A DNA stretch of 64,000 nt from Haliotis cracherodii (taxonomy: Eukaryota): assembly GCF_022045235.1 (NCBI RefSeq), contig NW_027266341.1, forward strand, positions 55,614,001 to 55,678,000, given 5' to 3'. Below the pieces are notes generated by a model. That model worked only from the letters and a program-made list of their open reading frames with translations. It did no database searches and was not told the DNA's origin. The translations under genes were made by a program, and so were the position numbers. Below, piece by piece: positions 16,241 to 62,010 of the stretch. Numbering within the stretch: position 1 is the stretch's first letter; each line of letters opens with the position of its first letter.

Positions 16241-16275
<35 letters not shown>

Positions 16276-16557: not shown

Positions 16558-16613
<56 letters not shown>
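16150..16613. repeat. Compound (TG)n/(GA)n microsatellite block in each array unit (putative 3' UTR)
   Basis: Visible dinucleotide runs, repeated at ~19630-20100, 24395-24950, 27965-28475 and 32020-32450. Confidence 0.95.
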
Positions 16614-16615
<2 letters not shown>

Positions 16616-19605: not shown

Positions 19606-19715
19606 ACTCCTTTATCCTTTTAATGTCTGAATGTGTGCAAGTGAGTGAATGAATGAGCAGGTTTGTATGTATGTGTGCGTTTGTGTGAGAGTAAATATAC
19701 GATTGAATGAGCATG

Positions 19716-19755
<40 letters not shown>

Positions 19756-20034
19756 GGAGAGAGAGAGACAGAGAGAGAGAGACTGAATGAATATGTATGT
19801 TTGTGTGTGTGTATTGTGTGCGTGTAAGAGTAAATGTAAGATTGAATTATCATGTCTGTCTGTATGCATGTATGTGGGTATGTGTGTGTGAGTGTTTGTG
19901 TGTGAGTGTGAGAGAGTGAATGAGCATGTATGTATGATGTGTGTATGTATGTGTGAGAGGGAGAGTGTATATTGTGTATATATGTTAGAGATGAGAGCTG
20001 GAGTGAATGAACGAGCCTACATGTATGTGTGTAT

Positions 20035-20102
<68 letters not shown>

Positions 20103-22104: not shown

Positions 22105-22129
22105 ATGAATACAAGGCTTCACATTCAAG
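22105..22129 (+). CDS. Array gene copy 3, exon A only (rest lost in the 100-N gap 22225-22324)
   Basis: ATGAATACAAGGCTTCACATTCAAG|gt followed by an assembly gap. Confidence 0.4.
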
Positions 22130-24372: not shown

Positions 24373-26951
24373 ACTCCTTTATCCTTTTAATGTCTGAATG
24401 TGTGCAAGTGAGTGAATGAATGAGCAGGTTTGTATGTATGTGTGCGTTTGTGTGAGAGNNNNNNNNNNNNNNNNNNNNNNNNNNNNNNNNNNNNNNNNNN
24501 NNNNNNNNNNNNNNNNNNNNNNNNNNNNNNNNNNNNNNNNNNNNNNNNNNNNNNNNNNNNNNNNNNNNNNNNNNNNNNNNNNNNNNNNNNTGTGTGTGTG
24601 TATTGTGTGCGTGTAAGAGTAAATGTAAGATTGAATTATCATGTCTGTCTGTATGCATGTATGTGTGTATGTGTGTGTGAGTGTTTGTGTGTGAGTGTGA
24701 GAGAGTGAATGAGCATGTATGTATGATGTGTGTATGTATGTGTGAGAGGGAGAGTGTATATTGTGTATATATGTTAGAGATGAGAGCTGGGGTGAATGAA
24801 CGANNNNNNNNNNNNNNNNNNNNNNNNNNNNNNNNNNNNNNNNNNNNNNNNNNNNNNNNNNNNNNNNNNNNNNNNNNNNNNNNNNNNNNNNNNNNNNNNN
24901 NNNNNNNNNNNNNNNNNNNNNNNNNNNNNNNNNNNNNNNNNNNNNNNNNNNNTATTTTTGGCGTATTTTTAGGCTCACAGTTTTGGCCCAACTTTCAGTT
25001 TCCTTTTGGCAACCCTCTCGGCTTATTAGCATGGCACAAGGCCATACTTTTTATACAATTTTGGCCCGTTTTTGGATCTCCCTTGAGGCATACTACTTTC
25101 GACTTTCGGTCATCTGAATAAATGTTTCTGTAATGTATACACAAGTTGTTTGTTTTCTCTACAGTGTTTCTTCCTTACAGCTAATAATATGTGGGTGACA
25201 GCAGCATCGCAATATTGGCATATGCCCAAATCCCAGGGTTTCCGAACATGAGACATAAATTCATATGGATATTGTTAAAAAGTGAATGTTGCCCCTATAT
25301 TGCTGTGCTGCTGTGTCCCAGTTTCATGATCTGCACTTAGCAGAAGATTTCTAAGTAGGTGGGGTTACCTTAAGATCAGACACTTCTAAATGTTTATGTG
25401 GCGACAATTGTGACACGGGATATTCTCTGAGGACAGCTCTCTGACACTTTGTTATCTGGAATATTTTTTTTATTCCAATATAATAGCTCATCGTTTCTAA
25501 TGTAACAATAACTTTGGCTTCCTTTTAAAGGAGTGCGAATCGAGAATTGCCTTCTCTAAAACACAAGTGTCGCCACATGGGATATATTACGAGCACTTCA
25601 CCCAACTAATAGCAGTAGTCGGACAAGGGGTTGAGAGTGATCTCCCTTCGCCCCAGTCAATATTGGATTCCACTCGTCTCATCATTATGGCTTTACAGGA
25701 GTCGACCTCACTGCTGGTCCTTTGGCCCGTGGTCTTCAGATATTGCAGAGGGCATGCTTTTATACATAGGCCGAGGCCAGGCGCAAGTAGCAAGCCTATA
25801 CTGACACCTACTCGTATGCAAGAGTAGATTGATGTATATATATATATGACGTAATATTCGTATCTTGCATTCTACAAAAATACCTAAATAATACAAGGGG
25901 TCTGAATTCTAACCCTGTACGTCCACATCAGCGTTTTCAAAATGGGACGGTCAATAGGATTTCTCTGACTGTGAGTGTGTGGGTGGCTAGGATTTTTTCA
26001 GAAAATAAATATATTGTCTCCGAAATTGATTGAAAACTAATTATGCTTCCATCTGTTGGACAAAAAGAACATGTCAGCCACCAAAAATACGTTGTGGCAA
26101 GGTGGAATTTTGAAAAAATGTTTTATTTAGGCTCATAATTTTAGCTGATTTTGCATTTGTAGCTGAAAAATATCTAGTCTCCATACAAAATCCAAGGTCG
26201 CCCACTCCCCCTTCCAACAGAACATGAAATGGTCGGCCCCTTAGGCCTAGTATAGTAATAACCAATATGCTTGTCATTTATCTTTCCCTCCTATTAGCTA
26301 TTTTCTGTGGTCGTCGTTTTTCCAGATTAGAAATCAAACCAAATAAGAACTGTCGCTGCACACGTTGGTATTTACCAGTACCATTTAACTACTGTATTTT
26401 ATCCCTGTAGGCTAGGGAATAATTCCCCAATCCCACTTGGATTATCAGAGATGGGCATTCTTACTAGCCTGCTAGCCCGTGTCAGTCTGTCGAATGTAAA
26501 ATGTATTGTGAAGGCTGGTATAATAGAGGGTCGTTATATGGTATCGCTATTCGACCTAGCAAACGTTTAAGGTTAATGTCTACAAGAGATGATCCATATC
26601 AAAGTGAACAAAATTCACCCTGTTTCGAGTAATGGAGGCACGAAAAACACCCAGTTTCACCTACACAATGTTTTGAAACTGATGTAGGCAACGTTTCAGT
26701 TGTAAGTCACAACTTAATCCCGGTGTTCAGACGAAATAAACCCGGCAGTTTCACCCTCGGCAATGCCATTAGGCTTGACCACGCCGGAAGCTGGCGATGA
26801 GCCTCGTTCTGACTCCTGGAACTCCGTAACGTAGTTACCGTTGCCCTTATCGACGTCCCTTCTGTTTTCAACAGAAAAACGATCGCTTTTGCTCCGCTGA
26901 CCTCTACGTTTTGCTAACTACTGTATCATTCCAAGTGTTTCTTCTTCCAAT

Positions 26952-27939
26952 ATGAATACAAGGCTTCACATTCAAGGTATTTAAGATCACAATTATTCCA
27001 CTTAACAGTATTAAGATGTTAAATTAGACGTGAAATTGGTCGTTGTTAGGCAGCTGTATCGGGACTGAAGATGGCGGCCGCCATTTGCAATTGTCTTAAC
27101 TGAACATTTTAGATTGTAAACTTGACATGTGGTGCTCAGATGATACCTGTTCGTACATTATAGTGTCGGGCGATGTAGTACAGATGTAAGATAACCTGTA
27201 TTACGTGAAAAGCAGCTGTTTGGCCCATTTTATTGGTTAAATGTCGTCTTGCAGCACAGCCTGTAACCCTACATACACTTGGAGTTCGAGGTGTCAAAGG
27301 GCCGAGGTCGAGTGACATACTGTAGCTGTCAGAAGTCGTAAATTGTGATTTTTTGAACGTAGCCGTCGGCGTACATTTAACTGAGCCTAGCTTTCGTTTT
27401 TCTTTTTCAGCTCGGGAGGACATAATTCGCTATTATGGCACTCCTGCGGCTGTGAGTTTGTGGCCGTCTCAGGATGAGGAGTCCGACTGTGTATGTATAA
27501 TTTTACATGCCCTCCCTGTAAATTCCTCCGTCTAGTTTAGCTGATTTGTTGCACATTAAGTCTGCCCAGTCCCTATAATAAAGTGTGATTCGTTTTCTTT
27601 GCAAAAGTATCCCGTTTTTCTGTCTGACCTGACTTCCTTTGTCCTTCCCTCCGTCCCCTCGATGTGTAGCGTTCCCTGGCTGTGTCCCCTTCCCGTTGTC
27701 CCGACCCCCTGAGCGTCTTCACTCCGTTCTGGGCCCGCCCTGTCTACGGTGAGACGCTCCCCGCCCCCGTCACCATCAACCACGCTGATTACTATCCTGC
27801 CCCAAGTAACGATGATGACAGTGACTACTGGGTGTACGAGGACGAGGACGACCACAGCTTTGTGGATGACAGAGAGATTCATCCCTTTAGAAAGGCGCTG
27901 ACGAGAGCGGCTGCCTTCTTTAGGAAGATCTTCTCTTAG
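26952..27939 (+). CDS. Array gene copy 5 (26952-26976, 27411-27490, 27670-27939)
   Basis: Same structure; ORF intact. Confidence 0.58.
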
Positions 27940-28047
27940 ACTCCTTTATCCTTTTAATGTCTGAATGTGTGCAAGTGAGTGAATGAATGAGCAGGTTTGT
28001 ATGTATGTGTGCGTTTGTGTGAGAGTAAATATAAGATTGAATGAGCA

Positions 28048-28078
<31 letters not shown>

Positions 28079-29180
28079 CAGAGAGAGACAGAGAGAGGCT
28101 GAATGAATATGTATGTTTGTGTGTGTGTGTATTGTGTGCGTGTAAGAGTAAATGAAAGATTGAATTATCATGTCTGTCTGTATGCATGTATGTGTGTATG
28201 TGTGTGTGAGTGTTTGTGTATGAGTGTGAGAGAGTGAATGAGCATGTACGTATGATGTGTGTATGTATGTGTGAGAGGGAGAGTGTATATTGTGTATATA
28301 TGTTAGAGATGAGAGCTGGAGAGAATGAAGAANNNNNNNNNNNNNNNNNNNNNNNNNNNNNNNNNNNNNNNNNNNNNNNNNNNNNNNNNNNNNNNNNNNN
28401 NNNNNNNNNNNNNNNNNNNNNNNNNNNNNNNNNNNNNNNNNNNNNNNNNNNNNNNNNNNNNNNNNNNNNNNNNNTTTGGCGTATTTTTAGGCTCACAGTT
28501 TTGGCCCAACTTTCAGTTTCCTTTTGGCAAACATCTTGGCTTATTAGCATGGCACAAGACCATACTTTCTATACAATTTTGGCCCGTTTTTGGATCTCCC
28601 TTGAGGCATACTACTTTCGACTTTCGGTCATCTGAATAAATGTTTCTGTAATGTATACACAAGTTGTTTGTTTTCTCTACAGTGTTTCTTCCTTACAGCT
28701 AATAATATGTGGGTGACAGCAGCATCGCAATATTGGCATATGCCCAAATCCTAGGGTTTCCGAACATGAGACATAAATTCATATGGATATTGTTAAAAAG
28801 TGAATGTTGCCCCTATATTGCTGTGCTGCTGTGTCCCAGTTTCATGATCTGCACTTAGCAGAAGATTTCTAAGTAGGTGGGGTTACCTTAAGATCAGACA
28901 CTTCTAAATGTTTATGTGGCGACAATTGTGACACGGGATATTCTCTGAGGACAGCTCTCTGACACTTTGTTATCTGGAATAATTTTTTTATTCCAATATA
29001 ATAGCTCATCGTTTCTAATGTAACAATAATTGTGGCTTCCTTTTAAAGGAGTGCGAATCGAGAATTGCCTTCTCTAAAACACAAGTGTCGCCACATGGGA
29101 TATATTACGAGCACTTCACCCAACTAATAGCAGTAGTCGGACAAGGGATTGAGAGTGATCTCCCTTCGCCCCAGTCAATA

Positions 29181-29712
29181 CAAGCTCCTTCCCAGCGCGT
29201 GACACCTTCGTTACACTCTCGGTAACATCGCTGCCACCAGTGTGGGCGCGGCCATTTCAAGAATCTTGAAATTTGCCCTCCAACCCCATATGTAGTAACG
29301 TTTATACTTTTTTTTATGTCTCTGGGAATGCCATCATATTTCAATTTGAAAAGGTTTACGACTGACCATGTTTTCCAGATGAATTCACTTTGTTGTTTTG
29401 ATAATCAGATTGGTTCGAGATTGCAGACTAACGGAAAATCAACCAACTTCTCCCTTACATTCTTACTATATCAATAACACGATAGTTTTAATGAAACAGA
29501 AATTCAAATTGACAAACGAAGAAAGTAATTTAGCAGCGATAAGTGTATTCGGCGTCACGACAGTCGTCACTTGTTTGTAAACATAACGGTCATTCGGTTG
29601 CGAGTTCAACTCCAAGCATGGTTGTGGCCACCTATTCACAGTGGGGAGTTTTGACTGGTGGCAGCGATAGTATAGAGAGCTCCGGGAACGTACTATCGCT
29701 GTGAGGAGCTTG
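29181..29712. mobile_element. 532-bp non-autonomous DNA transposon (MITE, MULE-like) inserted in one array unit
   Basis: TIRs CAAGCTCCTTCCCAGCG / CGCTGTGAGGAGCTTG; 9-bp TSD CAGTCAATA (29172-29180, 29713-29721); empty site in the five other copies of this segment. Confidence 0.9.
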
Positions 29713-31008
29713 CAGTCAATATTGGGTTCCACTCGTCTCATCATTATGGCTTTACAGGAGTCGACCTCACTGCTGGTCCTTTGGCCCGTGGTCTTCAGAT
29801 ATTGCAGAGGGCATGCTTTTATACATAGGCCGAGGCCAGGCGCAAGTAGAAAGCCTATACTGACACCTACTCGTATGCAAGAGTAGATTGATGTATATAT
29901 ATATATGACGTAATATTCGTATCTTGCATTCTACAAAAATACCTAAATAATACAAGGGGTCTGAATTCTACCCCTGTACGTCCACATCAGCGTTTTCAAA
30001 ATGGGACGGTCAATAGGATTTCTCTGACTGTGAGAGTGTGGGTGGCTAGGACTTTTTCAGAAAATAAATATATTGTCTCCGAAATTGATTGAAAACTAAT
30101 TATGCTTCCATCTGTTGGACAAAAAGAACATGTCAGCCACCAAAAATACGTTGTTGCAAGGTGGGATTTTGAACAAATGTTTTATTAAGGCTCATAATTT
30201 TAGCTGATTTTGCATTTGTAGCTGAAAAATATCTAGTCTCCATACAAAATCCAAGGTCGCCCACTCCCCCTTCCAACAGAACATGAAATGGTCGGCCCCT
30301 TAGGCCTAGTATAGTAATAACCAATATGCTTGTCAGTTATCTTTCCCTCCTATTAGCTATTTTCTGTGGTCGTCGTTTTTCCAGATTAGAAATCAAACCA
30401 AATAAGAACTGTCGCTGCACACGTTGGTATTTACCAGTACCATTTAACTTTTATTTTATCCCTGTAGGCTAGGGAATAATTCCCCAATCCCACTTGGATT
30501 ATCAGAGATGGGCATTCTTACTAGCCTGCTAGCCCGTGTCAGTCTGTCGAATGTAAAATGTATTGTGAAGGCTGGTATAATAGACAGTCGTTATATGGTA
30601 TCGCTATTCGACCTAGCAAACGTTTAAGGTTAATGTCTACAAGAGATGATCCATATCAAAGTGAACAACATTCACCCTGTTTCGAGTAATGGAGGCACGA
30701 AAAACACCCAGTTTCACCTGCACAATGTTTTGAAACTGATGTAGGCAACGTTTCAGTTGTAAGTCACAACTTAATCCCGGTGTTCAGACGAAATAAAACC
30801 GGCAGTTTCACCCTCGGCAATGCCATTAGGCTTGACCACGCCGGAAGCTGGCGATGAGCCTCGTTCTGACTCCTGGAACTCCGTAACGTAGTTACCGTTG
30901 CCGTTATCGACGTCCCTTCTGTTTTCAACAGAAAAACGATCGCTTTTGCTCCGCTGACCTCTACGTTTTGCTAACTGCTGTATCATTCCAAGTGTTTCTT
31001 CTTCCAAG

Positions 31009-31996
31009 ATGAATACAAGGCTTCACATTCAAGGTATTTAAGATCACAATTATTCCACTTAACTGTATTAAGATGTTAAATTAGACGTGAAATTGGTCGT
31101 TGTTAGGCAGCTGTATCGGGACTGAAGATGGCGGCCGCCATTTGCAATTGTCTTAACTGAACATTTTAGATTGTAAACTTGACATGTGGTGCTCAGATGA
31201 TACCTGTTCGTACATTATAGTGTCGGGCGATGTAGTACAGATGTAAGATAACCTGTATTACGTGAAAAGCAGCTGTTTGGCCCATTTTATTGGTTAAATG
31301 TCGTCTTGCAGCACAGCCTGTAACCCTACATACACTTGGAGTTCGAGGTGTCAAAGGGCCGAGGTCGAGTGACATACTGTAGCTGTCAGAAGTCGTAAAT
31401 TGTGATTTTTTGAACGTAGCCGTCGGCGTACATTTAACTGAGCCTAGCTTTCGTTTTTCTTTTTCAGCTCGGGAGGACATAATTCGCTATTATGGCACTC
31501 CTGCGGCTGTGAGTTTGTGGCCGTCTCAGGATGAGGAGTCCGACTGTGTATGTATAATTTTACATGCCCTCCCTGTAAATTCCTCCGTCTAGTTTAGCCG
31601 ATTTGTTGCACATTAAGTCTGCCCAGTCCCTATAATAAAGTGTAATTCGTTTTCTTTGCCAAAGTATCCCGTTTTTCTGTCTGACCTGACTTCCTTTGTC
31701 CCTCCCTCCACCCCATCGATGTGTAGCGTTCCCTGGCTGTGTCCCCTTCCCGTTGTCCCGACCCCCTGAGCGTCTTCACTCCGTTCTGGGCCCGCCCTGT
31801 TTACGGTGAGACGCTCCCCGCCCCCGTCACCATCAACCACGCTGATTACTATCCTGCCCCAAGTAACGATGATGACAGTGACTACTGGGTGTACGAGGAC
31901 GAGGACGACCACAGCTTTGTGGATGACAGAGAGATTCATCCCTTTAGAAAGGCGCTGACGAGAGCGGCTGCCTTCTTTAGGAAGATCTTCTCTTAG
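31009..31996 (+). CDS. Array gene copy 6 (31009-31033, 31468-31547, 31727-31996)
   Basis: Same structure; ORF intact. Confidence 0.58.
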
Positions 31997-32105
31997 ACTC
32001 CTTTATCCTTTTAATGTCTGAATGTGTGCAAGTGAGTGAATGAATGAGCAGGTTTGTATGTATGTGTGCGTTTGTGTGAGAGTAAATATAAGATTGAATG
32101 AGCAT

Positions 32106-32141
<36 letters not shown>

Positions 32142-32398
32142 AAGAGAGAGACAGAGAGAGGCTGAATGAATATGTATGTTTGTGTGTGTGTGTATTGTGC
32201 GTGTAAGAGTAAATGAAAGATTGAATTATCATGTCTGTCTGTATGCATGTATGTGTGTATGTGTGTGTGAGTGTTTGTGTGTGAGTGTGAGAGAGTGAAT
32301 GAGCATGTATGTATGATGTGTGAGAGGGAGAGTGTATATTGTGTATATATGTTAGAGATGAGAGCTGGAGTGAATGAACGAGCCTACATGTATGTGTG

Positions 32399-32454
<56 letters not shown>

Positions 32455-34389
32455 CCATTCCAGTGTATTTTTGGCGTATTTTTAGGCTCACAGTTTTGGC
32501 CCAACTTTCAGTTTCCTTTTGGCAAACCTCTTGGCTTATTAGCATGGCACAAGACCATACTTTCTATACAATTTTGGCCCGTTTTTGGATCTCCCTTGAG
32601 GCATATTACTTTCGACTTTCGGTCATCTGAATAAATGTTTCTGTAATGTATACACAAGTTGTTTGTTTTCTCTACAGTGTTTCTTCCTTACAGCTAATAA
32701 TATGTGGGTGACAGCAGCATCGCAATATTGGCATATGCCCAAATCCTAGGGTTTCCGAACATGAGACATAAATTCATATGGATATTGTTAAAAAGTGAAT
32801 GTTGCCCCTATATTGCTGTGCTGCTGTGTCCCAGTTTCATGATCTGCACTTAGCAGAAGATTTCTAAGTAGGTGGGGTTACCTTAAGCTTAGACACTTCT
32901 AAATGTTTATGTGGCGACAATTGTGACACGATATATTCTCTGAGGACAGCTCTCTGACACTTTGTTATCTGGAATAATTTTTTTATTCCAATATAATATC
33001 TCATCATTTCTAATGTAACAATAATTGTGGCTTCCTTTTAAAGGAGTGCGAATCGAGAATTGCCTTCTGTAAAACACAAGTGTCGCCACATGGGATATAT
33101 TACGAGCACTTCACCCAACTAATAGCAGTAGTCGGACAAGGGATTGAGAGTGATCTCCCTTCGCCCCAGTCAATATTGGGTTCCACTCGTCTCATCATTA
33201 TGGCTTTACAGGAGTCGACCTCACTGCTGGTCCTTTGGCCCGTGGTCTTCAGATATTGCAGAGGGCATGCTTTTATACATAGGCCGAGGCCAGGCGCAAG
33301 TAGAAAGCCTATACTGACACCTACTCGTATGCAAGAGTAGATTGATGTATATATATGACGTAATATTCGTATCTTGCATTCTACAAATATACCTAAATAG
33401 TACAAGGGGTCTGAATTCTACCCCTGTACGTCCACATCAGCGTTTTCAAAATGGGACGGTCAATAGGATTTCTCTGACTGTGAGTGTGTGGGTGGCTAGG
33501 ATTTTTTCAGAAAATAAATATATTGTCTCCGAAATTGATTGAAAACTAATTTTGCTTTTAGTAATATTCCAGCAATATGGAGGGGGGCTCCAGAAAGTGG
33601 CTTCACATATTGTACCCATGTGGGGAATTGAACCCTGGTCTTTGGCCTGAAGGCGAACACTTTAACCACTAGGCTACCCCCACTGCGCCAAAGGGAGGAA
33701 GAACAATTGTTTTTATTATGTGGAGAACTTTGGCATACATGTTTCTTCTTATGATTACATATAGTATCACTGCTGCAGAAAACATTTGAATATCAATGAT
33801 GACAGTAACTTTTACTCAGTAGCTGTCTTTGTGTTTTTAGCTATTGAATACATGGTGAGTGACCTGTGACATGGCACTAATGTCTGTGTACATCCTTGTA
33901 TGCTAACCATGTGTTGTATCCTGATCATGTGTCTTCACATCCTGACTTTGGGATTGCTCACCCTTTCGTCACCAGATCAGTTCCCGACACGAAATCACAT
34001 GCTGCCATGATACAGCAGTGAGAGTGCTAGTAGTGGGATCACACACAAATGTATGATGATTTTTCACTACTCGATAGAAGTATAGGTCACAGCTGCACAC
34101 CAAGAAACAAATATTGATTCTCACCTAAAAAGGGTGGCTAAATAAATGTTACACCAAACACTAATAAGTAGTGGAAACTTAAATACTTGACACTGCCAAC
34201 TGTAAATCATCAGTGTGCCAGTGATCGGCCATCCTGTCTAGGGAAAAAGATGGCTTACCCCAACAGATAAGCACCAGCAAGTATCGTGATTCATATTGGA
34301 TCGTAAGCAACGTATCGTGATACGTATTCGGCCATCCTGTCTATGAAAAAGATGGCTTACACACCACAGATAAGCACAAACAAGTATCG

Positions 34390-36790: not shown

Positions 36791-38151
36791 ACGTTGCACT
36801 CAAAGCGACATGCATGTGTGTGGCTGCTTGTACTAGACCACAGGTGCAGGGGTGATACAGTATCAGTGACTCCAGTACACAGACACAGCGCCATCTGTAA
36901 ATACCCATGACTCCCTTCACAAATCCAAATAATCCCTGCATTGTAATAAATAACACAAGTGAATGAGGGATGCCAGACAATGAATGATATCAGCCATTAA
37001 CCTTGTCAACATGACAGGTTTCTCAGTAAAACACTAAAAAATGAAAAAAGAGTATTTTGTAATCATAAACCCTACACAATTGCATAACAAACATTTTCAA
37101 CATGAAACAAAGTATAACACATGGTTTATATTCACTGGCTCACTGTTGTCAATGGAGAACTGAATACCTGTCTCTGATTACCACTCATCAGCTGCTAAGG
37201 ATATGAGTGAGTGAGTGAGTGAGTGAGTGAGTGAGTATGGTTTTACGCCGCTTGTTGCAATATTCCAGCAATATCACGGCGGGGGACACCAGAAATGGGC
37301 TTCACACATTGTACCCATGTCGGGAATCGAACCCGGGTCTTCAGCATNNNNNNNNNNNNNNNNNNNNNNNNNNNNNNNNNNNNNNNNNNNNNNNNNNNNN
37401 NNNNNNNNNNNNNNNNNNNNNNNNNNNNNNNNNNNNNNNNNNNNNNNNNNNNNNNNNNNNNNNNNNNNNNNNNNNNNNNNNCTTTTAACAGTATTCCAGT
37501 TATATCACGGCGTGTCAGCTTAATGTGGGAGGAAAGCCCGAAGTGATGCAAGTCTCAGACGTATTGGAGGATGACTATGGCGTCTGCCCATGAAGAAGTT
37601 GGATCTCTGTTGAGTGTGAGTGTGAGCGTTTGTTTCTTGTTTAATGCCGCCCACTGCCATATTTCAGCATCCATGGGACACGACAACAACCATGGTACAT
37701 GCAATCAACCAGGTCACCGAGCTTGACCATCAGATCCATTTTGTTGCTTCTTATGACAAGCAAAGGTTGCTGGCACCTATATTCCTCTAGGTTTTTACTT
37801 TACTGGTATTCAGTCACATCTAAATTATTGTTATAAGGTGGGAGAAAAGCTAAAGGCTATTCTTGTCTTGTTGAAACCCCTCAGTGAATATGAATGAGTG
37901 AGTGGATGTTGACGATATAAGGTGAATATATATTTTGTTTTACACATTTGCCAACCAACTATTTAAAAAAGAATTGTAATAGTATACATACTTATGAATA
38001 AATATATATTTGTAAACTGCCCTATGTTGCCGACTGTATGTGTAAATATATGTATATTGATATACATGTATACTACTGATGAGGTAAAAGTGATTCTAAT
38101 CACACTGGCCTCACACGTCAGCACAGGTAGAATCAGCAGTGATTTTCCTAT

Positions 38152-38745
38152 TGAATGCTACTGCATTTACATAACCTGACTCTTGAATGCTGCAGCAGAA
38201 ACATAACCTGACTCTTGAATGCTGCAGCAGTAACAACCTTATTGTTGAATGCTAAAGCAGTAAAATAACCTTATTGTTGAATGCTGCAGCAGAAACATAA
38301 CCTGACTCTTAAATGCTGCAGCAGTAACATAACCTTCTTGTTGAATGCTGCAGCAGTAACATAACCTTATTGTTGAAAGCTGCAGCAGTAACATAACCTT
38401 ACTCTTGAATGCTGCAGGAGTAACATAACCTGACTCTTGAATGCTGCAGCAGTAAAATAACCTGACTCTTGAATGCTGCAGCAGTAACATAACCTTATTA
38501 TTGAATGCTGGGGGACTAACATAACCTAACACTTGAATGCTGCGGGACTAACATAACCTTACTCTTGAATGCTGCGGGACTAACATAACCTAGCACTTGA
38601 ATGCTGCGGGACTAACATAACCTAACACTTGAATGCTGCGGGACTAACATAACCTTACTCTTGAATGCTGCAGCAGTAACATAACCTTATTGTTGAATGC
38701 TACAGCAGTAACATAACCTTATTGTTGAATGCTGCAGCAGTAATA
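38152..38745. repeat. ~32-bp minisatellite, ~18 copies
   Basis: AACATAACCTGACTCTTGAATGCTGCAGCAGT consensus with variant blocks. Confidence 0.95.
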
Positions 38746-42207: not shown

Positions 42208-42420
42208 AATAACTGTCTTCTAGGAATAGTGACAGACTGGCCTATGAGGTAATGAACTGAAAAAAAAAAAGATATCTAAATACAAAATTTCACTAAAGCA
42301 TTCAGTCTGGACTGACACAACTGGACTCCACTGTCAGTGTTGTGTAGAACAATGTCTTCAGCACTATATGAAATACATCCTGATAAATTAACACTGTATG
42401 CCGCCATGCAGCAGCCCACA

Positions 42421-42687
42421 TCATGACTGGAACTGCCGGGATTGGGGTTGGTAGTATTGTTGGGTTGGTCGGCGCTTGTCAGGCCGGGCTTGTCCCCCTT
42501 GGAAGCCAGCGCCATTACCGCTGCGTCGAAACTCCATGGAGTTGATTGGCCCTGCGAACCCAGCCTGGCCGGGGAAGGGGGGCGGGCCTTGCATGACCAT
42601 TGCCCCTGCATTGTGAGGGGGGTTGTTGTAGTAGGATTGCTGACTCGGGGGGCCCTTGTGGTAATTACGCGAGTTGTTCGGGGGTTG
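42421..42687 (-). CDS. TDRD3: TDRD3 exon 13 (terminal; EJC-binding motif-like)
   Basis: QPPNNSRNY...[10 protein letters not shown]...[19 protein letters not shown]. Confidence 0.92.
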   Translation of the reverse strand, partial: QPPNNSRNYHKGPPSQQSYYNNPPHNAGAMVMQGPPPFPGQAGFAGPINSMEFRRSGNGAGFQGGQARPDKRRPTQQYYQPQSRQFQS

Positions 42688-45600
42688 CTGTTGAAAAGAA
42701 ACAGAGAAAATAGTGTGTGTGTGTATCTGTCAAATTGACTTAGGCCGTGAAACATAAAAGAATTCACATTCAAAATATATTTCAAAACGGAGAGCAAGGG
42801 TGGCCCAGTCGGCTAAGGTGCTCGATTTGTTGTGCAGAGTTGTGTCCCTTGTTCACGCCAGAAACCTATGAATGTGGGTTCGAATTCCGGTTCGCCCCAA
42901 TTATGTTTCATCCGCTTTTATTTACAGGCCTGGACTTGATTATTTACAGGCCGCCGTATTATCGTTGGAATACTGCTGAGTGCAGCGATAAATATCAAAC
43001 AAGTGAGAGAGTTAGTTGTGTTTAACACCGCTTTTAACAGTATTCCAGTTATATCGCAGCGTTATATTTGAACCATATACTGTTAGTGCAGCTCCTGAAG
43101 GGTCAACTTACCCAAGTTTGCTGTGAGAGGGCTTCAATATCAGACAGCAGCACTTCCTCCATATTGCCATATTCCAGGAATGTCACAACACATGTTGCTC
43201 CATTGCTGGCAAAATCCTCAATGCGTGCCATGTAGAACTGCAACAGACAACCAGGACCTGTAGCCACTCAATCACAGCATTCCAGGATGGGTGTGGGAGG
43301 ACTGTGCGAGGTACATAACATTAAGGGCTCCAATTGTCTGAACCATTGAATACTTAGTGACATGTTATAACTCATTCATCTTCCCGAGGCAAGGGAGTTA
43401 ACTGACTGTAAAAGCCCTGTTTCCTACTTTGCCGAACTAGGCTGGAATTTCTGGGTTTGATCGTAGCGCCTCCATTGGCTATTATGACTTTATGTCCCTC
43501 CTACAGACCAATCAGATTCCACCTCTCACATCACTTACATTTGCTTCAAACAAAATGGCGCCGCCCCGTCAAGACGATCAGATCAATAATCAATATCTAT
43601 ATTGTCATAAAAGGGTCTTACTTCGCGAAGTGCATCAAATCACGTTAGCACCTTGATTAGAAACATGAAAGGATTTTTAAAATACCTGTTGACGGAGTTG
43701 GCGGTACACATGCCTTACAAATCCTGCAATCGGATGAAATCTGCACGGCAGTTTACTAGAGGATTTCAGTTTCGTTATCGTGATTATGATTGTTCAACGC
43801 ATTGACGAGTTAGTCCAGGGAAAATGTAACTCCACTATTCCAGGCTGGTTTGGCGAGGATTGAAATTGGAATTTTATAGACAGTTAACTCCCTTGCCTCG
43901 GGAAGTTGTCATTCATTTTGATTATTCAATACATATTTATTCTCTAACAGGCTCTTAATGGTGCTGTTGGAATTTGGAACCCTGGGACAGAAGCAAACAT
44001 ACACAATGATGGTAACATTGTTTTTGTTTGTTTGTTTTTTGACGCCGCACTCAGCAATATTCCAGCCACATGACAGCTGTCTGTAAATAATCGAATCTGG
44101 ACCAGACAATTCAGTGATTGATATTATGAGCATCAAACTGTGCAATAGGGTTACGACATGCATCAACCAAGTCAGCAAGCCTGACCACCCGATCCCGTTA
44201 GTCGCCCCTCGCGACAAGCATGGGTTGCTGAAGACCGGATCCACCCCGGATCTAAACATTGTCCCACGCCTGCACTCACCCGACTGTCCTCCCAGTACTT
44301 GGCCATGACCTGATCTCCCTTCCTCCACGAATGACCTTCACCTTGTGGGGGACCCTCATGACGATGTTGTTGGGATTGCTGTTGCTGTGAAACATGAATG
44401 ATGTGACTAGGCTATCATCACAAACTAAAGCAAGTGTTATTACGGGCAATGGTGGTTGACAGCATGAGCAACAATCAATTGGGAAGGGGCATGAGGTCAC
44501 ATGATCCTCAGGTCACACATTGTAACTCTCTAATCCTACAGTGGCAATGGAGGAACCTGTTCTGTCCAAGAATTGCTTCGGAATTGCAGCTTTATTGTAT
44601 AACTTGCCCTAATGTTGACTGAATAAGTGAAGGTTTTTTTTACACTAGCCAGACATGTTCCAGGTTTGTAACAGCAGCAGAGCCCTCTAATTTTGTTTGT
44701 TTGTTAGGGAGCCAAGCGGTTCCTAACATGATTATCTTAGGAGCTTAAGTTTTTAGGAACCGACCGATGTTTTAAACAGACATTGTCAGTTTGCACAAAT
44801 ATATAGAATGGACGCACCGAAAAAAAGATGGCATCCCAAGGCAGTCAAAATAGTATTCAAAGGACTAAATTGTCACAAGAAATATAAGGGTCCTGGATTA
44901 TCAAATCTTACAGTACACCATGGTACACTACACGATCTCAATACTTCACAGGACCCTCATATTACCAGTGGGGACCCTTGAAATAAATTTAAGGTAAAAC
45001 CCTGTAACAGAGAACAATGACACACTCATCTTGAGGTTGATTCTGCCCCCAGCATGCCTTCAGGGAGACAAGAAAAAATGATTGTCCATTCTTTCCTGGA
45101 GTGCCCAACTGAATTCTTAGATATAAAATCATAGAAGCATCCCTGACATGCAGTGGCAGCCTTCATTCAGTGAATGTCACGCTTGCTGTTCGTGCAGCAC
45201 TCAGCAATATTCCAGCTACATGATGGTGGACTGTAAATAATAAGTCTGGACCAGACAATCCAGTGATCGATATAATGATCAATGCCTCACATCATCGAGT
45301 CTGATCACCTTGGCCCCCGATCCACAAAGCGATCTTAGTGCTAAGTCGATTGTAACACCCATTCTTTAACACTGACTTACAAGAGTCGTCACGCTAAGAT
45401 CGCTTTGTGGAACAGGGCCCTGATGCATACAGATGGTGGTTGCAATTACAGATTACTCGATGTCTTCTAACCCAGAACCCCCACAGAGACCCACTGACTG
45501 CTTGCCTGATAACCTGCCCTTTTCATAGCATTTTCGTTTACCTCATATGGCTTCCTTGATCCATCTTGCTGTGACCTTGAACTTCTCTGACCTTGAGCTT

Positions 45601-48600
45601 GGCGACTGCCTCTTTGGTTGTCAAAACGGTTATCACGTCTGTCTTCTTGGGGGCCATCGTTTTTAGAATTGTGTTGTGAGTTTTGCCGACTATTATATCT
45701 ATTTTCCTTGTATTCCTGCGGATCATTGTAATTGTATGATCCGGACTTTGGACGGGACTGGTTAAAATCTTTTTGACCACGTTCGTAAGCATTATAGCCT
45801 GACTGGTTGGACCGGGTTTGATTGTCTGTTCTCCGATGGGAATCCTCTCCCCGCTGTGTCCTATCAGAATCAAAATTTGGGAACTGCTGACTAGAAGGTT
45901 TCTGTTGGTGGTAGCTTGGGCCATCTTGGCCGTGCCTCCCAGCTAACCTTGGTGGAAGATTCTGTTTGCGATTCTGAAAGTTTTGCCCTGAGAAGTCTTG
46001 CTGTTGAGATTGTTGATGGTGATGGTTTGGTGTGGACTTGTAGCCCCCTGACCTGCTGGAGTTATTTTCATAGTGAGGCCTGCCATTGGGCCCTGAGTTG
46101 CTGCGAGTTGAGCTGCTGTCTGTAGATGACTTGTTGTTGAAGGTGGGACGACTAGAGGCACTGGACGACTTCGACTCTGGAACATAAACTGACTGTTAGC
46201 AGGCTGTTTTAGGGGTTTAAGCTGGTGTGTATATTGGTGGGGAGGTGAGGTGAGGTGAAATGGGGTTTAACATCACGTCAGATATTATTGCACTCATATA
46301 GACGTGCATGCACGTGTGTGTGTGGCAGCTTGTACTAGTCCAGACTGATGCTGATTTATAGTGCTAGCCCACTGAGATACCATGCCACAGTTTAACATGA
46401 ATACCCCACTCAGACACAGTATACTGACTCCGTATCAACCAGTCCTTGTTTTAGCCCCTTAACGCCGTGGGCCAGACAGGGTAACAACAAGTACCATATT
46501 TTAACTTCTGCTCTCCAGGCGGATGCTCTACCGCTGGACCACGGAGGTGGTCTTGAAGCGACAAGAGATGACTAGAGTGAGTTGTGCTTAATGCCGCTTT
46601 TAACAGTATTCCAGTTATATCATGGCGTGTCAGTTTAATGTGGGAGGAAAGCCCGAAGTGATGCATGTCTTAAACGTTTACCACTTCTGTGAAACTAACG
46701 AGCACGGGTATGGTGCTGACAAACCTAGGGCGAATTGGGATTCGAACCCATAATCATAGGTTTCTGGTGTGCCCAAGGGACGCAACTCAGCACAGCGAAT
46801 TGTGGTGCCTTAGACAACTGAGCCACCCGTGCCCCTGGAGATGACTAGAAATGATTGACCAGGTAGATACCACACATTGGTTCTGTAAGTGACGAAGAAG
46901 TGAAAGGTAATCAAATTAATCATAGATCACACTACCTTCCTTGACTGGAATCTTTGTTTCGAGGAAATCAAAGAGTGTGGCAGGACCACTCGGTCTGGAT
47001 GATGCCCCACCCTCTTCATCCTCATCCCGGTCTCTCCCTCGACGGCCACGCCCACCTAAACAATCAATGTTAGTTAAGTTCACACAGATGGCAAAAATGT
47101 TGCTGTCAAACTATCCTGAACTTATTAAGGGAAGCAATGTAATTACAAATTAGGTAATATTCTGAAATGTTAGGGTGACTATTGGGGCTATTTTCACAAC
47201 TGAGGGTGATTGTATTGCAATAGTAGCCCTCACTATTGCAACAGTATTGCGATTGTAGTCAACTATTGCCATAGTAGGAAACTAATGTCAAGACTTGATA
47301 ATTATCTAAATCAATGAAACACAAAATGAAAAAAGCACTGCCGACAATGTCAAACTCGACCATTTTCCATTTTCGCTACTCAAATTAAAAGGAAGTAACT
47401 CTTATTTGAAGATGTCGTAGTCCTTGCTAATCGACTCATTTGGCAGTAAAAATGTTTTCTGATTCATAATTCATGTTTTATTGCAACTAATGGTGGCCAC
47501 TGAAACTGTCAACTGTTATGCATACTATGAACAATACTATTGAGTTATTAAATTGTTATTAATATTGTACAATCATAAGAATTCCATATATTGTTACACA
47601 CATAACATTAAAGATTTGCAAGAACTGTTAAAAATACAATCTCTTTGAGTAATTCCTAAATTATAAACTCTTCAATAATGTATATTTTACAAGCTGTGAA
47701 CAAATCCACCACACCTTGTCTTGATTCCATTGGTTGTCGTCTTTCAAACTTATCTCCTCGATCCCCTCCACGACCAGGACCCCTGCCCCCCCTTGAGATG
47801 AGGGAGCTGATGGCATCGTTGACGTTGCCATTGGTTTGTCGTAGTGCTGTGCTTGCTTGGTCTGGCGTGAAGCCCATCTCCACAATACGAGCAACGTCTT
47901 TGTCACTCACATGCTGCCAACAGAGATGTGGTGCTTTACCTCACTTGGTCTATTTGCATCAACTATCAGTCTGAGACAAGCAGTAACTAATACACACCGT
48001 TCATCATCTTAGCATTTAAGAAACTATAAATCCAAACTGCCAATGGTATTTTGAACCTGTTGCAATACCCCGGCAAATGTCTTTTGTCATCCCCTCCTGT
48101 AGAGCCTCACTCTTTTCATCCCCCCACCCATTGTCTTCCCCTCCTGTAGAGCCTCACCTGTTTCATCCCCCCACCGAATGTCTGTCTTCCCCTCCTGTAG
48201 AGCCTCACCTGTTTCATCCCCCCACAGATTGTCTTCCCCTCCTGTAGAGCCTTACCTATTTCATCCCCCCACAGATTGTCTTCCCCTCCTGTAGAGCCTC
48301 ACCTGTTTCATCCCCCTACATATTGTCTTCCCCTCCCGTAGAGCCTTACCTGTTTCATCCCCCCACAGATTGTCTTCCCCTCCTGTAGAGCCTTACCTGT
48401 TTCATCTCCCCACAGATTGTCTTCCCCTCCTGTAGAGCCTCACCTGTTTCATCCTCCTACAGATTGTCTTCCCCTCCTGTAGAGCCTTACCTGTTTCATC
48501 TCCCCACAGATTGTCTTCCCCTCCTGTAGAGCCTCACCTGTTTCATCCTCCTACAGATTGTCTTCCCCTCCCGTAGAGCCTCACTTGTTTCATCCCCCCC

Positions 48601-51600
48601 CCCCACCGAATGTCTTTTGTCGTCCTCTCCTGTAGAGCCTCTACCGTTTCATCCCCCCCACTGAATGTCTTTGTCTTCCCCTCCTGTAGAGCCTCACCTG
48701 TTTCATCCCCCTCCGAATGTCTTTTGTCGTCCTCTCCTGTAGAGCCTCACCTGTTTCATCCCACCACCGAATGTCTTTGTCTTCCCCTCCCGTAGAGCCT
48801 CTACCATTTCATCCCCCCACTGAATGTCTTTGTCTTCCCCTCCTGTAGAGCCTCACCTGTTTCATCCCACCACCAAATGTCTTTGTCTTCCCCTCCTGTA
48901 GAGCCTCGGCTATAGTTGCTTGTCTCTGTTGCTCAAACTCGCTCTCTTCTGTCTTCTTATCCTTCTTGGAAGACTCCAAGGACTTAAAGTTCTCCTTCTT
49001 CTCTGGTGCTGGATACAAACAACTCAAACTTACAACCATCACACAGGAACAAGATGCTGACTAGGGAGTGAGGGAGGCTCAAGGTGACAGCAGTCATGAT
49101 AAGGTCTTCGCATTGTGAAAATCAAAGCTCATCATATGCGTGTGTTATGCACACACTGGTAGTCCAATACATATTCCAGTAGTTTACTCATCAAGGAATA
49201 CATTTATGTAGGGAGGCCCTTTCCCAGGTTGACAACTATTTATTTAATTACAGTAAATCATGAAATTAATGCGTCTCCAAAAGAATGTGAATGCTGGCCC
49301 CTAGCCATAAATGCCACTGCCTGCCGCCACTAAATTTTCAAAACCATTGCCTGAGAACCAATTCTTTTATTTTTTAAGCCTTCAGTGTGTTCATATGGTC
49401 ATCAGATTTCATGTATTTGTCCCTGTTTTCTGCACTGGCTTAAAATAATAATACTCATCATAGTAATTATTTCATAATGATTCCAAGAGTGCCCACTAGG
49501 GACCTGGAACTAAATGTGTTTGTTGTCTCACCTCTATGACCGGGATTGTAGTCATTTGATGGCATCTTCTTTCCAAATGGAACAAACAAAGGTGGCCCGC
49601 CTTCAGTCTGCACTCCCGATCTAGACTGTTTGGCTAGTTTCTGCCATTGAAAAAAAAATAATATATATATATATCTTTAAATGTAATTCCAAAACCTAAC
49701 ATTGAAAGTTCTTCATGAAAATGATTAAACATTGCGATAATCAAAACGTTAGAAAACAATTATCTGAACCCGGGTTCGAACCCACAGTCATAGGTTTCTG
49801 GCAGAATGGATAAACAAGAATGGCATGTACAACTGAGGTTGTAATGTGGCAGTTAACCTTTAGTGCCTCAAAGGTACCTCAGGTTGTATACTCCCCAGGG
49901 AGCTGATAATGATAAACGAGTGCACATTGATAAATTAACCCTGGTAATAATGTTAGCGCTTTGAGCATGCACCGTAGTCTAGTGCAATGTAAGTACACGT
50001 TATTGTTATTATTATTATAACAAAATACCATAGCTTCAAGAAATATTTATCTTGTTAATTGTTCAATGCTGCACTCAGCATGTTCAAGCCATATCCAATC
50101 CAATGGATGATATTATGAGCAACAATCCATGCTGCTGATGTTCAATGACAATCAACCAAGCCACCGAGTCTGACACCCTAATACATTTAGTAGCCACGAT
50201 GACTAGAACTGGGTGGTTTCCAGCAGTGGTTTCTGGGTACCTGGCCTAACCCGGAATCCCCACGCAGGTCTAGAAATAAGCACCACTCACTCGCTTCAGT
50301 TCCCATGTCTCCACCAACTTCTCTACTTTCCCTCCAAGACACCGGAAGTTCTTGTTAGTCAGTAACAGGAAGTTGTTCTCGACATCGACAGCGCCCTCTA
50401 GCATCACCTTGGTGCCAGGAGGCGTTCCAAGGCTGCAACAGAAGTGTTGGACGTCAACCATGTACTCACATACCAAAACTTACTTTCTCTGTTGAGAGGC
50501 TTCTCACCGGCATCAGTAGTTAAAACCTATTTCAGTTACATCACAATTATACAAAAATAATGAGTGAGTGAATTGGGGATAACATCACTTTGAACAGCAT
50601 TTCAGTAATATCACAGCGTGTCAGCTTAATGTGGCAGAAAGCCTTCAGTGATGCAGGTCATGGACGTGTCCCACTTCGGTAAAACCCAGCATGGGTATGG
50701 TGCTGACAAACCTAGAAACATAATCGGGGAGAATCGGGATTATAATCCACGATTATACGTTTCTGGTGTGCTCAAGGGACATAACTCTGCACAGCAAATT
50801 GTGGCCCTTTGGACGACTTGGACATCCGTGCTCCCTTCAAAACTATAGTATTTAGTAAGATGACACTCTGACCCCTCTTGGTTAATGTACCCCCGACATC
50901 AATGCACACTCAGTGAAACTGTGTCCCATACGTAGGATTCCTTACTTGATGTTTTTGAGGTTCTCAATTTCAATGGCTGTGCAGTTAATGTGACCATCAG
51001 TCAGTGACAGACGGAGAAGACGAGGAGCAGTTTGAGACTCCTCATTTTCTTTGGGGGCTGAGATGTTCCGTAGCTTCATCAACTGTAGCACCGCCGGCCC
51101 CTGAATCTGTATACAAAACAATATTGAATAAACAACACAACGTCACACAACATTTTGTTCTTTAATTATCTTTAATTTTATAGTTCATGTTGTAACATGA
51201 ACAACATGTTCTGCTTGTAACACCCTTATACCAAAATGATATTTCACTAAAGATTATTCACAATTCTAATACCTCTCAATTAGAGGCCCCTGCGACCCAT
51301 GAAGATCCAGGTTAGAATTGGTCTTCAGCAACCCATGATTGCCGTAAGAGGCGACTAGCGGGATCAGGTGGTAAGGCTTGCTGACTTGGTTGATACATGT
51401 CATCGTAACCCAATTGCGTGGATCGATTCTCATAATATCAATCACTGGATTGTCTGGTTCAGACTTGAATATTTACAGACCGCCGTCATATAGCTGGAAT
51501 ATTGCTGAGTGCGGTGTCAAACAACAAAGAAAGGAAAGTGTCTACTGGCAGAGTCCAACTACCTACCCTGCACACTAACGCATGGCGACATTATCAGCCA

Positions 51601-54600
51601 CTCCCTAGAGACTGAATACACAATCTCATTAAAATCAGATCTTAGTTTTCGCAACAGCTAAACACAGATCTGAGGACATTACACGTCAGAACGAGCTCTC
51701 GCAAACTTTGACCGATCAATGAAATGACTGACAAGAAATCGACATTAGTCAACCAGAAGGCAGCTTTCTCGAGCTTTACGACACTAGTTTCAAATTGGCA
51801 ACTACACTTCGAAACATATTTATTCTCCGTTTAAAATTTTAAAACTGATAAAAAAAATATTCTGCAATGGCCTAACAGTCATTCGGAATACCCTCTGTTA
51901 AACATTTCGAGGTTGCATGATCAAAAACACATTCACTTTCATGATCTGGTAAGCAACGCTCTGATTGGTTGGATGAAAGGTCGTTCTGACGTGACCCGTA
52001 ATGGGATGTCCTCAGATCTTTGTTTAGCGATAGCGAGAACTAAGATCTGATTTTAATGAGATTGCTGAATACACAACCAGGTAGAAATCATAGGGACTTA
52101 TCTTGACCTGCTCAGAGGCAGACATTTGGTCCCAAGTCTGCAGTGAATGGCAACAAAAATTTCCACATTGGTTCAAAAAGATGTTTATGAGTTAATAGAC
52201 AAAACTAATGTTATGTCTTTGCAGCAGTGGCCTATATTTCACTGATACCAGGACCAATAAACAGAAAACAATTAATGCTTAGACTCACATTATTACATTG
52301 AAGGAGTGAGTGAGTTGGGCTTAACGTCGATTTTTGCAGTATTCCAGTTATATCACGGCGTGTCAGCTTAATGTGGGAGGACAGCCCAAAGTGATGCAGG
52401 TCTCAGACGTTTACCACTTCGGTGAAACCCATGAGCACAGGCATGGTGCTGACAAACCTAGAAACATAATCGGGGCGAACCAGGATTCGAACCCACAATC
52501 ACAGGTTTCTGGCGTGCCCAAGGGAGGCAACTCTGCACAGCGAATCGCGGCGCCTTAGACGACTGGGCCACCCGTGCCCCCCCCTCATGAATGAACCAAT
52601 ATATACACATAATGCACCAAAATAATTTCAAACAATATGATGAAAAGTTGATGGAAGACGTACATAGTCCAGTCTGCCCTTGTGTAGCTCCTCCGGCAGC
52701 CATTTATCTCCCACGTCCCGCAAGTCAGTCTGCAAACAAGTAATATCAATTCATGTTCTCATTGATGTTTCCTGTGTGTTATATGTGTCTCTGTATGAAT
52801 TTTTAAGTTTATCTATCTGATGTGCTTCATGGAACACATTATAAGTGTATTTATTTGTTATTGATGTTTAAGCAACTACATTCCGGTAAGAGTTGATGTA
52901 ATAGTGAGTGAGTGAGTATGGTTTTACGCCGCTTTTAGCAATATCACGGCGGGGGTCACCAGAAATAGGCTTCACACATTGTACCCATGTCGGGAATTGA
53001 ACCCGGGTCTTCGGCGTGACGAGCGAACGCTTTAACCACTAAGCTACCCGACCGCCCAGTTGATGTAATAAATTTCATCTATGTTTCAATGTGGACACTG
53101 ACAGCTAAACACAAACAAATACACATTTTGATAATTGATAGAAAACTAAATGAACTGATATCAACTCCCCTTCCCCCCCCCCTCCCAAAAAAAATGTGGT
53201 CAAGGCTAATGTGGTGTTGGTTTGCTCACAACAAAAATAAATACAATTTTTTTTTCAGAAAACCAACATTTTTAGTCTAACAGGTTTTTTTTAAATTTGG
53301 AAAATAATGAAAGGCTAGTCTGTAAAACAATTAAGAATTGACTTTCACTTTTATGCGAGTTCATTGGAGTATGAACCTTCATAGAGTGAGGGCCAAACTG
53401 TATGAACGTTGGTGCTTGTGATATTCGTGAACGATCGTGCAGAGAAACTCTCTGACGTTTCTCAATGTTAACTTAAACAAGTTCAAAATTAAAGGGTCTA
53501 AATGATCAGAAAGAATGCTTCTGTGTGTATTTGTGCTTGAGAATTCCCAGGGGTTTCCCCAGGAATGTGGAAGTAGTCCGTCAGTGTTTACGTCATTTCA
53601 ACAACACTGTCTAGTGAAAAACTTATGAACATCCAATTGTGTTGTTCATACACTAATGAACGTCAATTTCATGGTCAGGTGACGGACCTCTCGTCCAATT
53701 GAAAACCCGTACATCGTGTTAACTTCAAATTAAAAATTTATAAGAACTTGAAAAGGCCTTTAATAGATTTTCCTTTCAATGATAGGAAGGAAAACATGCA
53801 TGACCTCATACATCGTATAAAGCATATAAAGGATTTATAGGATATACACAACCTACATCAATGGCTGTTTTGATGAGCTGATCCACTCCTCTTTTCCCAT
53901 TTTGTTCTAGCTCTGCGATGCCTTCTGCTGTCAGATGCCTGTGAAAATATAACAAGCAATCTAATTTAAACTATCTAATTATTGCCACTGGTACTTTTGA
54001 CATAAATGACATATAGGAAGACCTTCCAAGTTTTAGTAATAGTCCTACATATACCTATCAATTTCTAAATTGGGTCATGACTGTAGAATTAATAGCACCA
54101 GTTTTAATACTAGTTATGATAATTGATAACAGATTTGTTTCAACTTACAGGGGTAGAAACTAACATATTTAGTCCACTAGTCCTTATAATTATAACATAA
54201 AGCAAAACACTTAAAAATGGAAATTTCTACTTGTCCTTATGATTTTTTAACTACCGGTATTGGACTACAGGACTAGTGCCAATTTCTAACGCTGACTTAT
54301 CAATCATTGGTGATGATTGCATTTGTTACATTTTTTTCAATTTACATGTCCAAGAACCCTCTCATCCCTAACATGTTAAAAATGCCTGTTTGCTTCCACA
54401 CTGAAGAGTGTGTTAATATATGAATACATCAAAAAAAAGAATTGAACTTTTCAAATAAATAGTTGATATTGTTTTTGAATAACATTTTCTCCATAAATGA
54501 TTGCCCAATTACAACTGATCCTTGCACTGGTACAGGCAAACTGATCTATCGTCAGTTATTATCTAACCATAAACTCAAATTAATTCTGATAACTTTACTG

Positions 54601-61534: not shown

Positions 61535-61643
61535 TTTGGTGAAATGACATTTATTGAGTTCGATGATAGATCAAATGTATTTGTCAAGTTGTTCCACTTT
61601 AATTGCAAAGGGAACACCTAAACTTATTTATGAGTGCACTATT

Positions 61644-62010
61644 GACCACTGGTTGTAACCTGGTTCTGTCGTCATGTCCCAACAACACTGATCACACTGT
61701 CGACCACTGGTTGTAATCTGGTTGTATGTCATCGTGCCCCAACAACACTGATCACACTATCGACCACTGGTTGTAACCTGGTTCTGTCGTCATGACCCAA
61801 CAACACTGATCACACTGTCGACCACTGGTTGTAACCTGGTTGTATGTCATCGTGCCCCAACAACACTGATCACACTGTCGACCACTGGTTGTAACCTGGT
61901 TCTGTCGTCATGACCCAACAACACTGATCACACTGTCGACCACTGGTTGTAACCTGGTTGTATGTCATCGTGCCCCAACAACACTGATCACACTATCGAC
62001 CACTGGTTGT
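61644..62010. repeat. 58/60-bp alternating minisatellite (118-bp higher-order dimer x3)
   Basis: GACCACTGGTTGT at 61644, 61702, 61762, 61820, 61880, 61938 and 61998. Confidence 0.93.

What the first reader, a model, noticed from the sequence alone, without database searches (positions are those of the whole stretch)
48055..48907. TDRD3 exon-7 end plus splice donor amplified 17 times; the working donor appears to be made by the repeat junction
Seen in sequence (minus strand): the unit is the last 51 nt of exon 7 (GAGGCTCTACAG...ATGAAACAG) plus GT. The exon-7 donor CAG|GTGAGG is therefore GT plus the start of the next unit. The distal unit ends in a decayed ...GCAACAG|GTTCAAA, plausibly the ancestral donor. 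Most intronic units retain CAG|GTGAGG or CAG|GTAAGG, while the unit next to the exon has lost it (TGGTAGAGG). Read-through past the first donor meets an in-frame TGA at ~48809. Inference: splice-site turnover by tandem duplication in a conserved gene, leaving an array of decoy donors.
Basis: partly seen in the sequence, partly recalled or inferred. Interest (0 to 1): 0.7.

Follow-up and report, generated by a model that had tools for sequence, protein, structure and literature searches.

The report
Splice-donor minisatellite in abalone TDRD3
The end of one exon of an abalone's TDRD3 gene, with the first two letters of its splice signal, is copied 16 more times into the next intron; the annotated proteins use the first signal, so this is likely a tolerated example of a repeat type already known from lancelet and human genes.

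Summary
The array is real: 17 head-to-tail units of 47-59 nt (48907-48055, minus strand), found only at this locus. Unit 1 is the last 51 nt of TDRD3 exon 7 plus GT; the gene matches a Haliotis cracherodii protein exactly. The working donor CAG|GTGAGG takes bases +3 to +6 from unit 2. Ten of 16 intronic units keep CAG|GT(G/A)AGG, and every one lies behind a stop at 48811. Annotated proteins of four abalone species have the unextended junction. The intron is old, not made by the repeat. Whether the junction replaced a different ancestral donor is untested: no relative's intron and no reads were obtained; I put it near 60%. It would be unremarkable, since 23 of 143 exon-7 breakpoints give an equally consensus-like donor. 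The kind is in print: lancelet 'mirages', human F7, CBS, 6-16. The scan has noted it before on other DNA, in this genome and others. New member of a known kind; low interest.

The parts
48857..49008 (-). TDRD3 exon 7 (152 nt, ends in phase 0)
   Evidence: unique 13-exon solution reproducing P0001 and P0010
48855..48907 (-). Unit 1: last 51 nt of exon 7 plus GT
48851..48859 (-). Working donor CAG|GTGAGG; +3 to +6 are the first four bases of unit 2
48802..48854 (-). Unit 2: no GT in register (weak shifted ATG|GTAGAG); holds the first in-frame stop
48809..48811 (-). In-frame TGA, included by any downstream unit donor
48583..48801 (-). Units 3-6 (53-59 nt); units 4 and 6 share variants, as do units 2 and 5
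   Evidence: alignment
48109..48582 (-). Units 7-16: nine of 47 nt (shared internal deletion) and one of 51 nt; all keep GT in register
48055..48108 (-). Unit 17, most diverged, ends CAG|GTTCAA; likely the copy that kept the old intron flank
47914..48054 (-). Non-repeat remainder of intron 7 (141 nt) ending in the acceptor AG
   Evidence: no similarity to the unit above chance
47715..47913 (-). TDRD3 exon 8 (UBA domain)

Best explanation
This is a minisatellite of 17 copies of the end of TDRD3 exon 7 plus GT, lying at the start of an old intron, and it is likely an unselected by-product of local DNA duplication that splicing tolerates. Shown: the unit, its 16 extra copies, a working donor whose +3 to +6 bases come from unit 2, and a stop in front of every other unit donor. 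Inferred mechanism: (1) one duplication copied exon bases -51 to intron +2, so the left copy kept the exon and got a donor completed by the start of the right copy, while the right copy (now unit 17) kept the old intron flank; (2) it survived because the junction happened to read as a good donor, which is common in this purine-rich exon; (3) slippage or unequal exchange added units in the middle, spreading a 47-nt variant; (4) the spliceosome would take the most upstream donor, as measured for human F7, and any leak to later donors would carry the stop at 48811 and be removed by nonsense-mediated decay. That the old donor differed from GTGAGG is about 60% likely and untested.
For: Unit structure and edges. 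17 of 17 genome matches of the unit motif lie in the array, control 0; the locus is single-copy in G000. A unique exon solution reproduces both H. cracherodii proteins with the donor at 48857; 12 of 12 cluster members from four Haliotis species read MKQ|[H/P]VSDKD with no insert. No extended or truncated abalone form among 10 hits of a search for longer proteins with the read-through peptide (weak). Of 44 GT in the intron only the working donor and one poor site (4 of 9) are stop-free; the stop follows from the 53-nt unit length shifting ATGAAA into TGA. 23 of 143 exon-7 breakpoints would give 8 or more of 9 consensus matches after CAG|GT, 66 of 143 seven or more. Interior units share variants and the last unit is the most diverged, the pattern reported for lancelet mirages (PMC3087553). 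First-site use with silent identical downstream sites: PMC1557585.
Against: No reads: donor use rests on annotated proteins only, and annotation would miss rare or decayed transcripts. In human 6-16 and CBS the two nearest pseudo-sites are used (PMC1557585 introduction), so some leak is possible. The nearest decoy is one of 2 of 16 without an in-register GT, which could be selection. The ancestral donor, the age of the array and its length variation are unknown.
Confidence: 0.8

Rival explanations
1. Same neutral array, but the donor was never replaced: the ancestral donor was already GTGAG(G/N), its match to the exonic GAGG at -51 seeded the duplication by microhomology, and GTTCAA at unit 17 is a later deletion or decay.
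For: GTTCAA scores 5 of 9, below all 12 working donors. Unit 17 carries 5 substitutions and 3 gaps. The intron without the extra units would be 143 nt, against 424-1557 nt for the other 11 introns, which hints at lost sequence. At the same intron in other animals the residue after V is R in 7 of 44 and S in 13 of 44 read-through frames, Q in 0 and H in 2, so GTNCAN starts are a minority.
Against: Needs either four substitutions in four bases or a deletion starting exactly at +3. Unit 17's donor still pairs with U1 about as well as those of exons 2 and 4. A distant animal uses CAG|GTACAG at this intron (L012), two changes from GTTCAA.
Confidence: 0.35
2. The array is a regulatory sink: part of TDRD3 pre-mRNA is spliced at downstream donors, carries the stop and is destroyed, so unit number tunes TDRD3 dose.
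For: 10 of 16 intronic units have donors predicted as strong as the working one (-11.5 to -11.6 kcal/mol); all lead to a premature stop; nearest pseudo-sites are used in human 6-16 and CBS.
Against: The stop is an automatic result of unit length; annotated proteins show only the first donor; lancelet mirages and F7 do not disturb splicing; no sign of conservation was obtained.
Confidence: 0.08
3. The intron itself arose from the tandem duplication (Rogers-type intron gain).
For: 800 of the intron's 943 nt are repeat; one cluster of 12 genomic frames from another animal has no intron here (P0003 cluster).
Against: The acceptor lies 141 nt outside the array, exon 8 does not start with the unit's sequence, and the same phase-0 intron is present in L012 and implied by 44 read-through frames among 110 hits.
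Confidence: 0.01
4. The array is an assembly artefact.
For: No reads were laid on it.
Against: Units differ by ordered, shared variants and several lengths, which copying errors of an assembler would not give; no N in the stretch; contig of tens of Mb. Copy number could still differ between alleles.
Confidence: 0.03

Closest known systems
Lancelet 'mirage' minisatellites (Adh3, troponin C, globins BflGb6 and BflGb9, PGBD5); PMC3087553 and PMC3902484, passages read
   Same: Tandem copies spanning an exon-intron boundary, units in the reported 10-160 bp range, many but not all with splice signals, homogenised interior with a diverged boundary unit; reported not to disturb splicing.
   Different: Mollusc gene. 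Unit stops at intron base +2, so the donor is completed across the junction; I saw no statement of this in the passages read (PGBD5 repeats are said to abut the 5' splice site). Length instability and normal splicing were measured there, not here.
Human F7 intron 7 37-bp VNTR, with 6-16 intron 2, CBS intron 13, lamin B2 and PDGF intron 4; PMC1557585, abstract, introduction and discussion read
   Same: First unit spans the exon end; the donor is reiterated down the intron; the most upstream site is the authentic one.
   Different: F7 unit is 4 exon + 33 intron bases, so the whole donor lies inside the unit; here 51 exon + 2 intron. F7 pseudo-sites 5 and 6 would be stop-free (discussion), here none is.
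Human CBS 31-bp VNTR c.1444_1467+7(16_21); PMC2630376, passages read
   Same: Mostly exonic unit (24 exon + 7 intron bases by its name), 16-21 copies, the same size class as here.
   Different: Donor complete within the unit; length polymorphism shown; two pseudo-sites reported in use.

Membership tests
Mirage / splice-donor minisatellite | Tandem units that span a real exon-intron boundary | tested here: met
Mirage / splice-donor minisatellite | Minisatellite-size unit (10-160 bp reported), local to the gene | tested here: met
   47-59 nt; 17 of 17 motif matches in G000 at this locus
Mirage / splice-donor minisatellite | Many but not all units keep the splice signal | tested here: met
   14 of 16 intronic units keep GT in register, 10 of 16 the full CAG|GT(G/A)AGG
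Mirage / splice-donor minisatellite | Interior units homogenised, boundary unit excluded | tested here: met
   units 7-14 and 16 share a deletion; unit 17 has most differences from unit 1 (8 of 53)
Mirage / splice-donor minisatellite | Normal splicing at the authentic (first) site | tested here: inconclusive
   annotated proteins only; no reads (one search listed none)
Mirage / splice-donor minisatellite | Length differs between alleles | not tested
   one copy in G000; no reads obtained
Intron gain by tandem duplication (Rogers model) | Intron absent in relatives | tested here: not met
   same phase-0 intron in L012; 44 read-through frames among 110 hits
Intron gain by tandem duplication (Rogers model) | Donor and acceptor both supplied by repeat units | tested here: not met
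   acceptor 141 nt beyond unit 17, in sequence unlike the unit
Dispersed transposon or satellite | Copies elsewhere in the genome | tested here: not met
   (exact 17-letter motif; diverged copies would be missed)

The most novel reading that the evidence does not exclude
The duplication swapped out bases +3 to +6 of a weak ancestral donor (close to GTTCAA) for exon-derived GAGG, about doubling predicted U1 pairing without moving the splice point, and selection then kept the array harmless by disabling the nearest decoy while the 3n+2 unit length routes all leak to decay: a dated, natural case of donor renewal by repeat junction.
Probability: 0.12. Interest if true: 0.45.

Novelty: new member of a known kind. 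Interest (0 to 1): 0.18.

Why it matters
Little on its own. It adds a mollusc case to a known repeat type and shows one plain route by which the intronic half of a donor can be replaced while the protein stays the same. If RNA confirmed that ten donors as strong as the real one stay silent, it would be one more natural support for first-site selection outside mammals. The only distinctive detail, a unit that ends inside the donor, is easy to get by chance (23 of 143 breakpoints).

Tried and rejected
Sequencing runs: one search (window 42400-52300, kind any, word PACBIO) listed none; this is no evidence either way, and it left no runs to lay, so junction use, allele length and relatives' introns are untested. 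Other routes to a related abalone's intron start gave none: read-through protein searches (2 hits of 3 candidates, both distant; 10 hits of 82, none a read-through), metagenome scan (1 distant locus of 597 candidates), representatives, earlier notes on relatives (nothing). A unit-like stretch in the intron remainder (47944) is chance: 52% of 2,872 random stretches score as high. Selection against the nearest decoy: not supported, units 2 and 5 share the change and 2 of 16 lack the GT, so 1 in 8 by chance. Intron gain and dispersed element rejected (see rivals). Literature: no paper held with abalone + minisatellite + intron + splice site; TDRD3 + abalone: none of the 10 listed held TDRD3; a search for a donor created at a repeat junction gave 3 papers, none with that phrase; some searches were listings. 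PMC10078293 and PMC2812944 passages added only background. PMC1783408 was not held. Most subscription journals and all supplements were not seen, so absence from print is not shown.

Full report
Observation. The minus strand from 48907 to 48055 holds 17 head-to-tail units (TRF period 47, 16.5 copies). Unit 1 is 53 nt; units 2-6 are 53-59 nt; units 7-14 and 16 are 47 nt through a shared internal deletion; unit 15 is 51 nt; unit 17 is 54 nt and decayed. An exact 17-letter motif of the unit occurs 17 times in the 1.18-Gb genome, all here, with 0 for the reversed control. The locus has one match in G000.

The gene. Exons around the array hit Pfam RMI1_N, UBA and, weakly, a Tudor model. The exon-8 peptide is 100% identical to a protein named TDRD3-like X2 of Haliotis cracherodii. 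A search over GT/AG boundaries found exactly one 13-exon solution for each of the two H. cracherodii proteins; exon 7 is 49008-48857, exon 8 starts at 47913, and intron 7 is 943 nt, phase 0. All 12 members of the protein cluster, from H. cracherodii, rufescens, rubra and asinina, read MKQ then [H/P]VSDKD with no insert. These are annotations, not read counts.

The donors. The array's left edge is 48907, where the flank stops matching; the period is 51 exon bases plus GT. So the working donor is CAG|GT plus GAGG from unit 2. Of 16 intronic units, 7 have the identical 9-mer, 3 have CAG|GTAAGG, 4 keep GT in a weaker setting (units 6, 13, 16, 17) and 2 (units 2, 5) have it shifted by one base. The first in-frame stop is TGA at 48811-48809; it arises because a 53-nt unit shifts the frame over ...GGATGAAA. 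Of 44 GT in the intron, only the working donor and one site matching 4 of 9 consensus places lie before it. Six exons follow, so use of a later donor would, by established knowledge of nonsense-mediated decay, give an unstable transcript lacking the UBA and Tudor domains.

The intron is old. Metagenome locus L012 has the homologous exon ending CAG|GTACAG at 1397 and the next exon starting at 1891, same phase (boundaries read by eye). A profile search of representatives gave 110 hits (collected; ticket check). In 44 of them, short frames run from the exon motif into a valine and unrelated sequence, as read-through of a GT donor would; the other 66 were full-length, continued into the UBA exon, or were not parsed, and about three of the 44 were parsed at an earlier valine. 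One cluster of 12 frames lacks the intron. So the repeat did not make the intron.

Was the donor replaced? Unit 17's tail is a true copy of the unit end (0 of 19,444 random stretches as good), and it is followed by TCAA, not GAGG. Read simply, the old intron began GTTCAA or something near it and was 143 nt long. For this: predicted pairing with the U1 5' end (motif recalled) is -5.6 kcal/mol, within the -1.2 to -12.6 of the gene's 11 other donors, against -11.6 for the working donor; L012 uses GTACAG. Against: 5 of 9 consensus matches (consensus as) is below all 12 working donors, which have A or G at +3; only 2 of 44 read-through frames have H and none Q after the valine; unit 17 has 5 substitutions and 3 gaps; 143 nt is far shorter than the other introns. 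An ancestral GTGAG could have seeded the duplication by microhomology and the distal flank been deleted later. My rough weighing is 60 to 40 for replacement; this is inference. No related abalone's intron was obtained. Even if true it needs no special cause: 23 of 143 exon-7 positions would complete a donor with 8 or more of 9 matches, 66 with seven or more, and duplications that broke the donor would not be seen.

Mechanism. Shown: anatomy, donor make-up, stop, annotated junction. Inferred: a first duplication of exon -51 to intron +2; growth in the middle by slippage or unequal exchange (shared variants in units 2 and 5, in 4, 6 and 17, and in 7-14); first-site selection; decay of any leak. 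The lost donor in unit 2 is shared with unit 5 and is 1 in 8 by chance, so selection is not shown.

What is known. PMC1557585 (abstract, introduction, discussion read) describes the human F7 intron 7 VNTR whose first unit spans the exon end, shows that only the most upstream site is used though the others are functional, and lists 6-16, CBS, lamin B2 and PDGF; in 6-16 and CBS two nearby pseudo-sites are also used. PMC3087553 and PMC3902484 (passages) describe lancelet 'mirages', with units of 10-160 bp, length instability, a diverged boundary unit and normal splicing. PMC2630376 (passages) names the CBS repeat c.1444_1467+7(16_21). The array meets four of six features of this kind, one is inconclusive and one untested. 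It differs in that the unit ends inside the donor; my searches did not show that detail in print, but they cover open papers only. Earlier notes of this scan list at least three more donor arrays and two acceptor arrays in this genome and more in other animals; these are unchecked and gave me the term 'mirage' and its paper, which I then read.

Verdict. Real, correctly described, new member of a known kind. Interest 0.18. The boldest reading not excluded, selected donor renewal with a disabled nearest decoy, has about 12% odds.

Noticed in passing
protein P0066: A frame from another, unnamed animal holds three tandem copies of part of the same TDRD3 exon with intron-like sequence between them: a parallel duplication at the same exon.
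   Followed up: no
window 55452-55417: The two annotated isoforms start at ATGs 10 nt apart in different frames (55452, 55442) and use donors 4 nt apart (55421, 55417), rejoining one frame at exon 2.
   Followed up: partly
window 13682-33557: A unit of about 3.5 kb repeated several times at 94-98% identity, with N stretches; each copy has a short acidic open stretch on the + strand near 15900-16130. Not identified.
   Followed up: no
window 38151-38743, 9419-9882, 61637-62010, 3092-3223: Four other minisatellites (units 32, 83, 59/118, 45 nt). Six-frame reading showed no evident exon at their edges.
   Followed up: partly
window 4186-4465 and at least 8 other places: A dispersed element of about 275 nt and another of about 200 nt recur in the window, several inside TDRD3 introns; likely short mobile elements.
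   Followed up: no
proteins P0003, P0016-P0026: Twelve genomic frames from one unnamed animal run from the exon-7 motif into the UBA exon without a break, so the old intron has been lost in that lineage.
   Followed up: no
window 47997, 47944, 47939: Three donor-like sites in the non-repeat intron remainder, all behind the stop; likeness to the unit is at chance level.
   Followed up: yes
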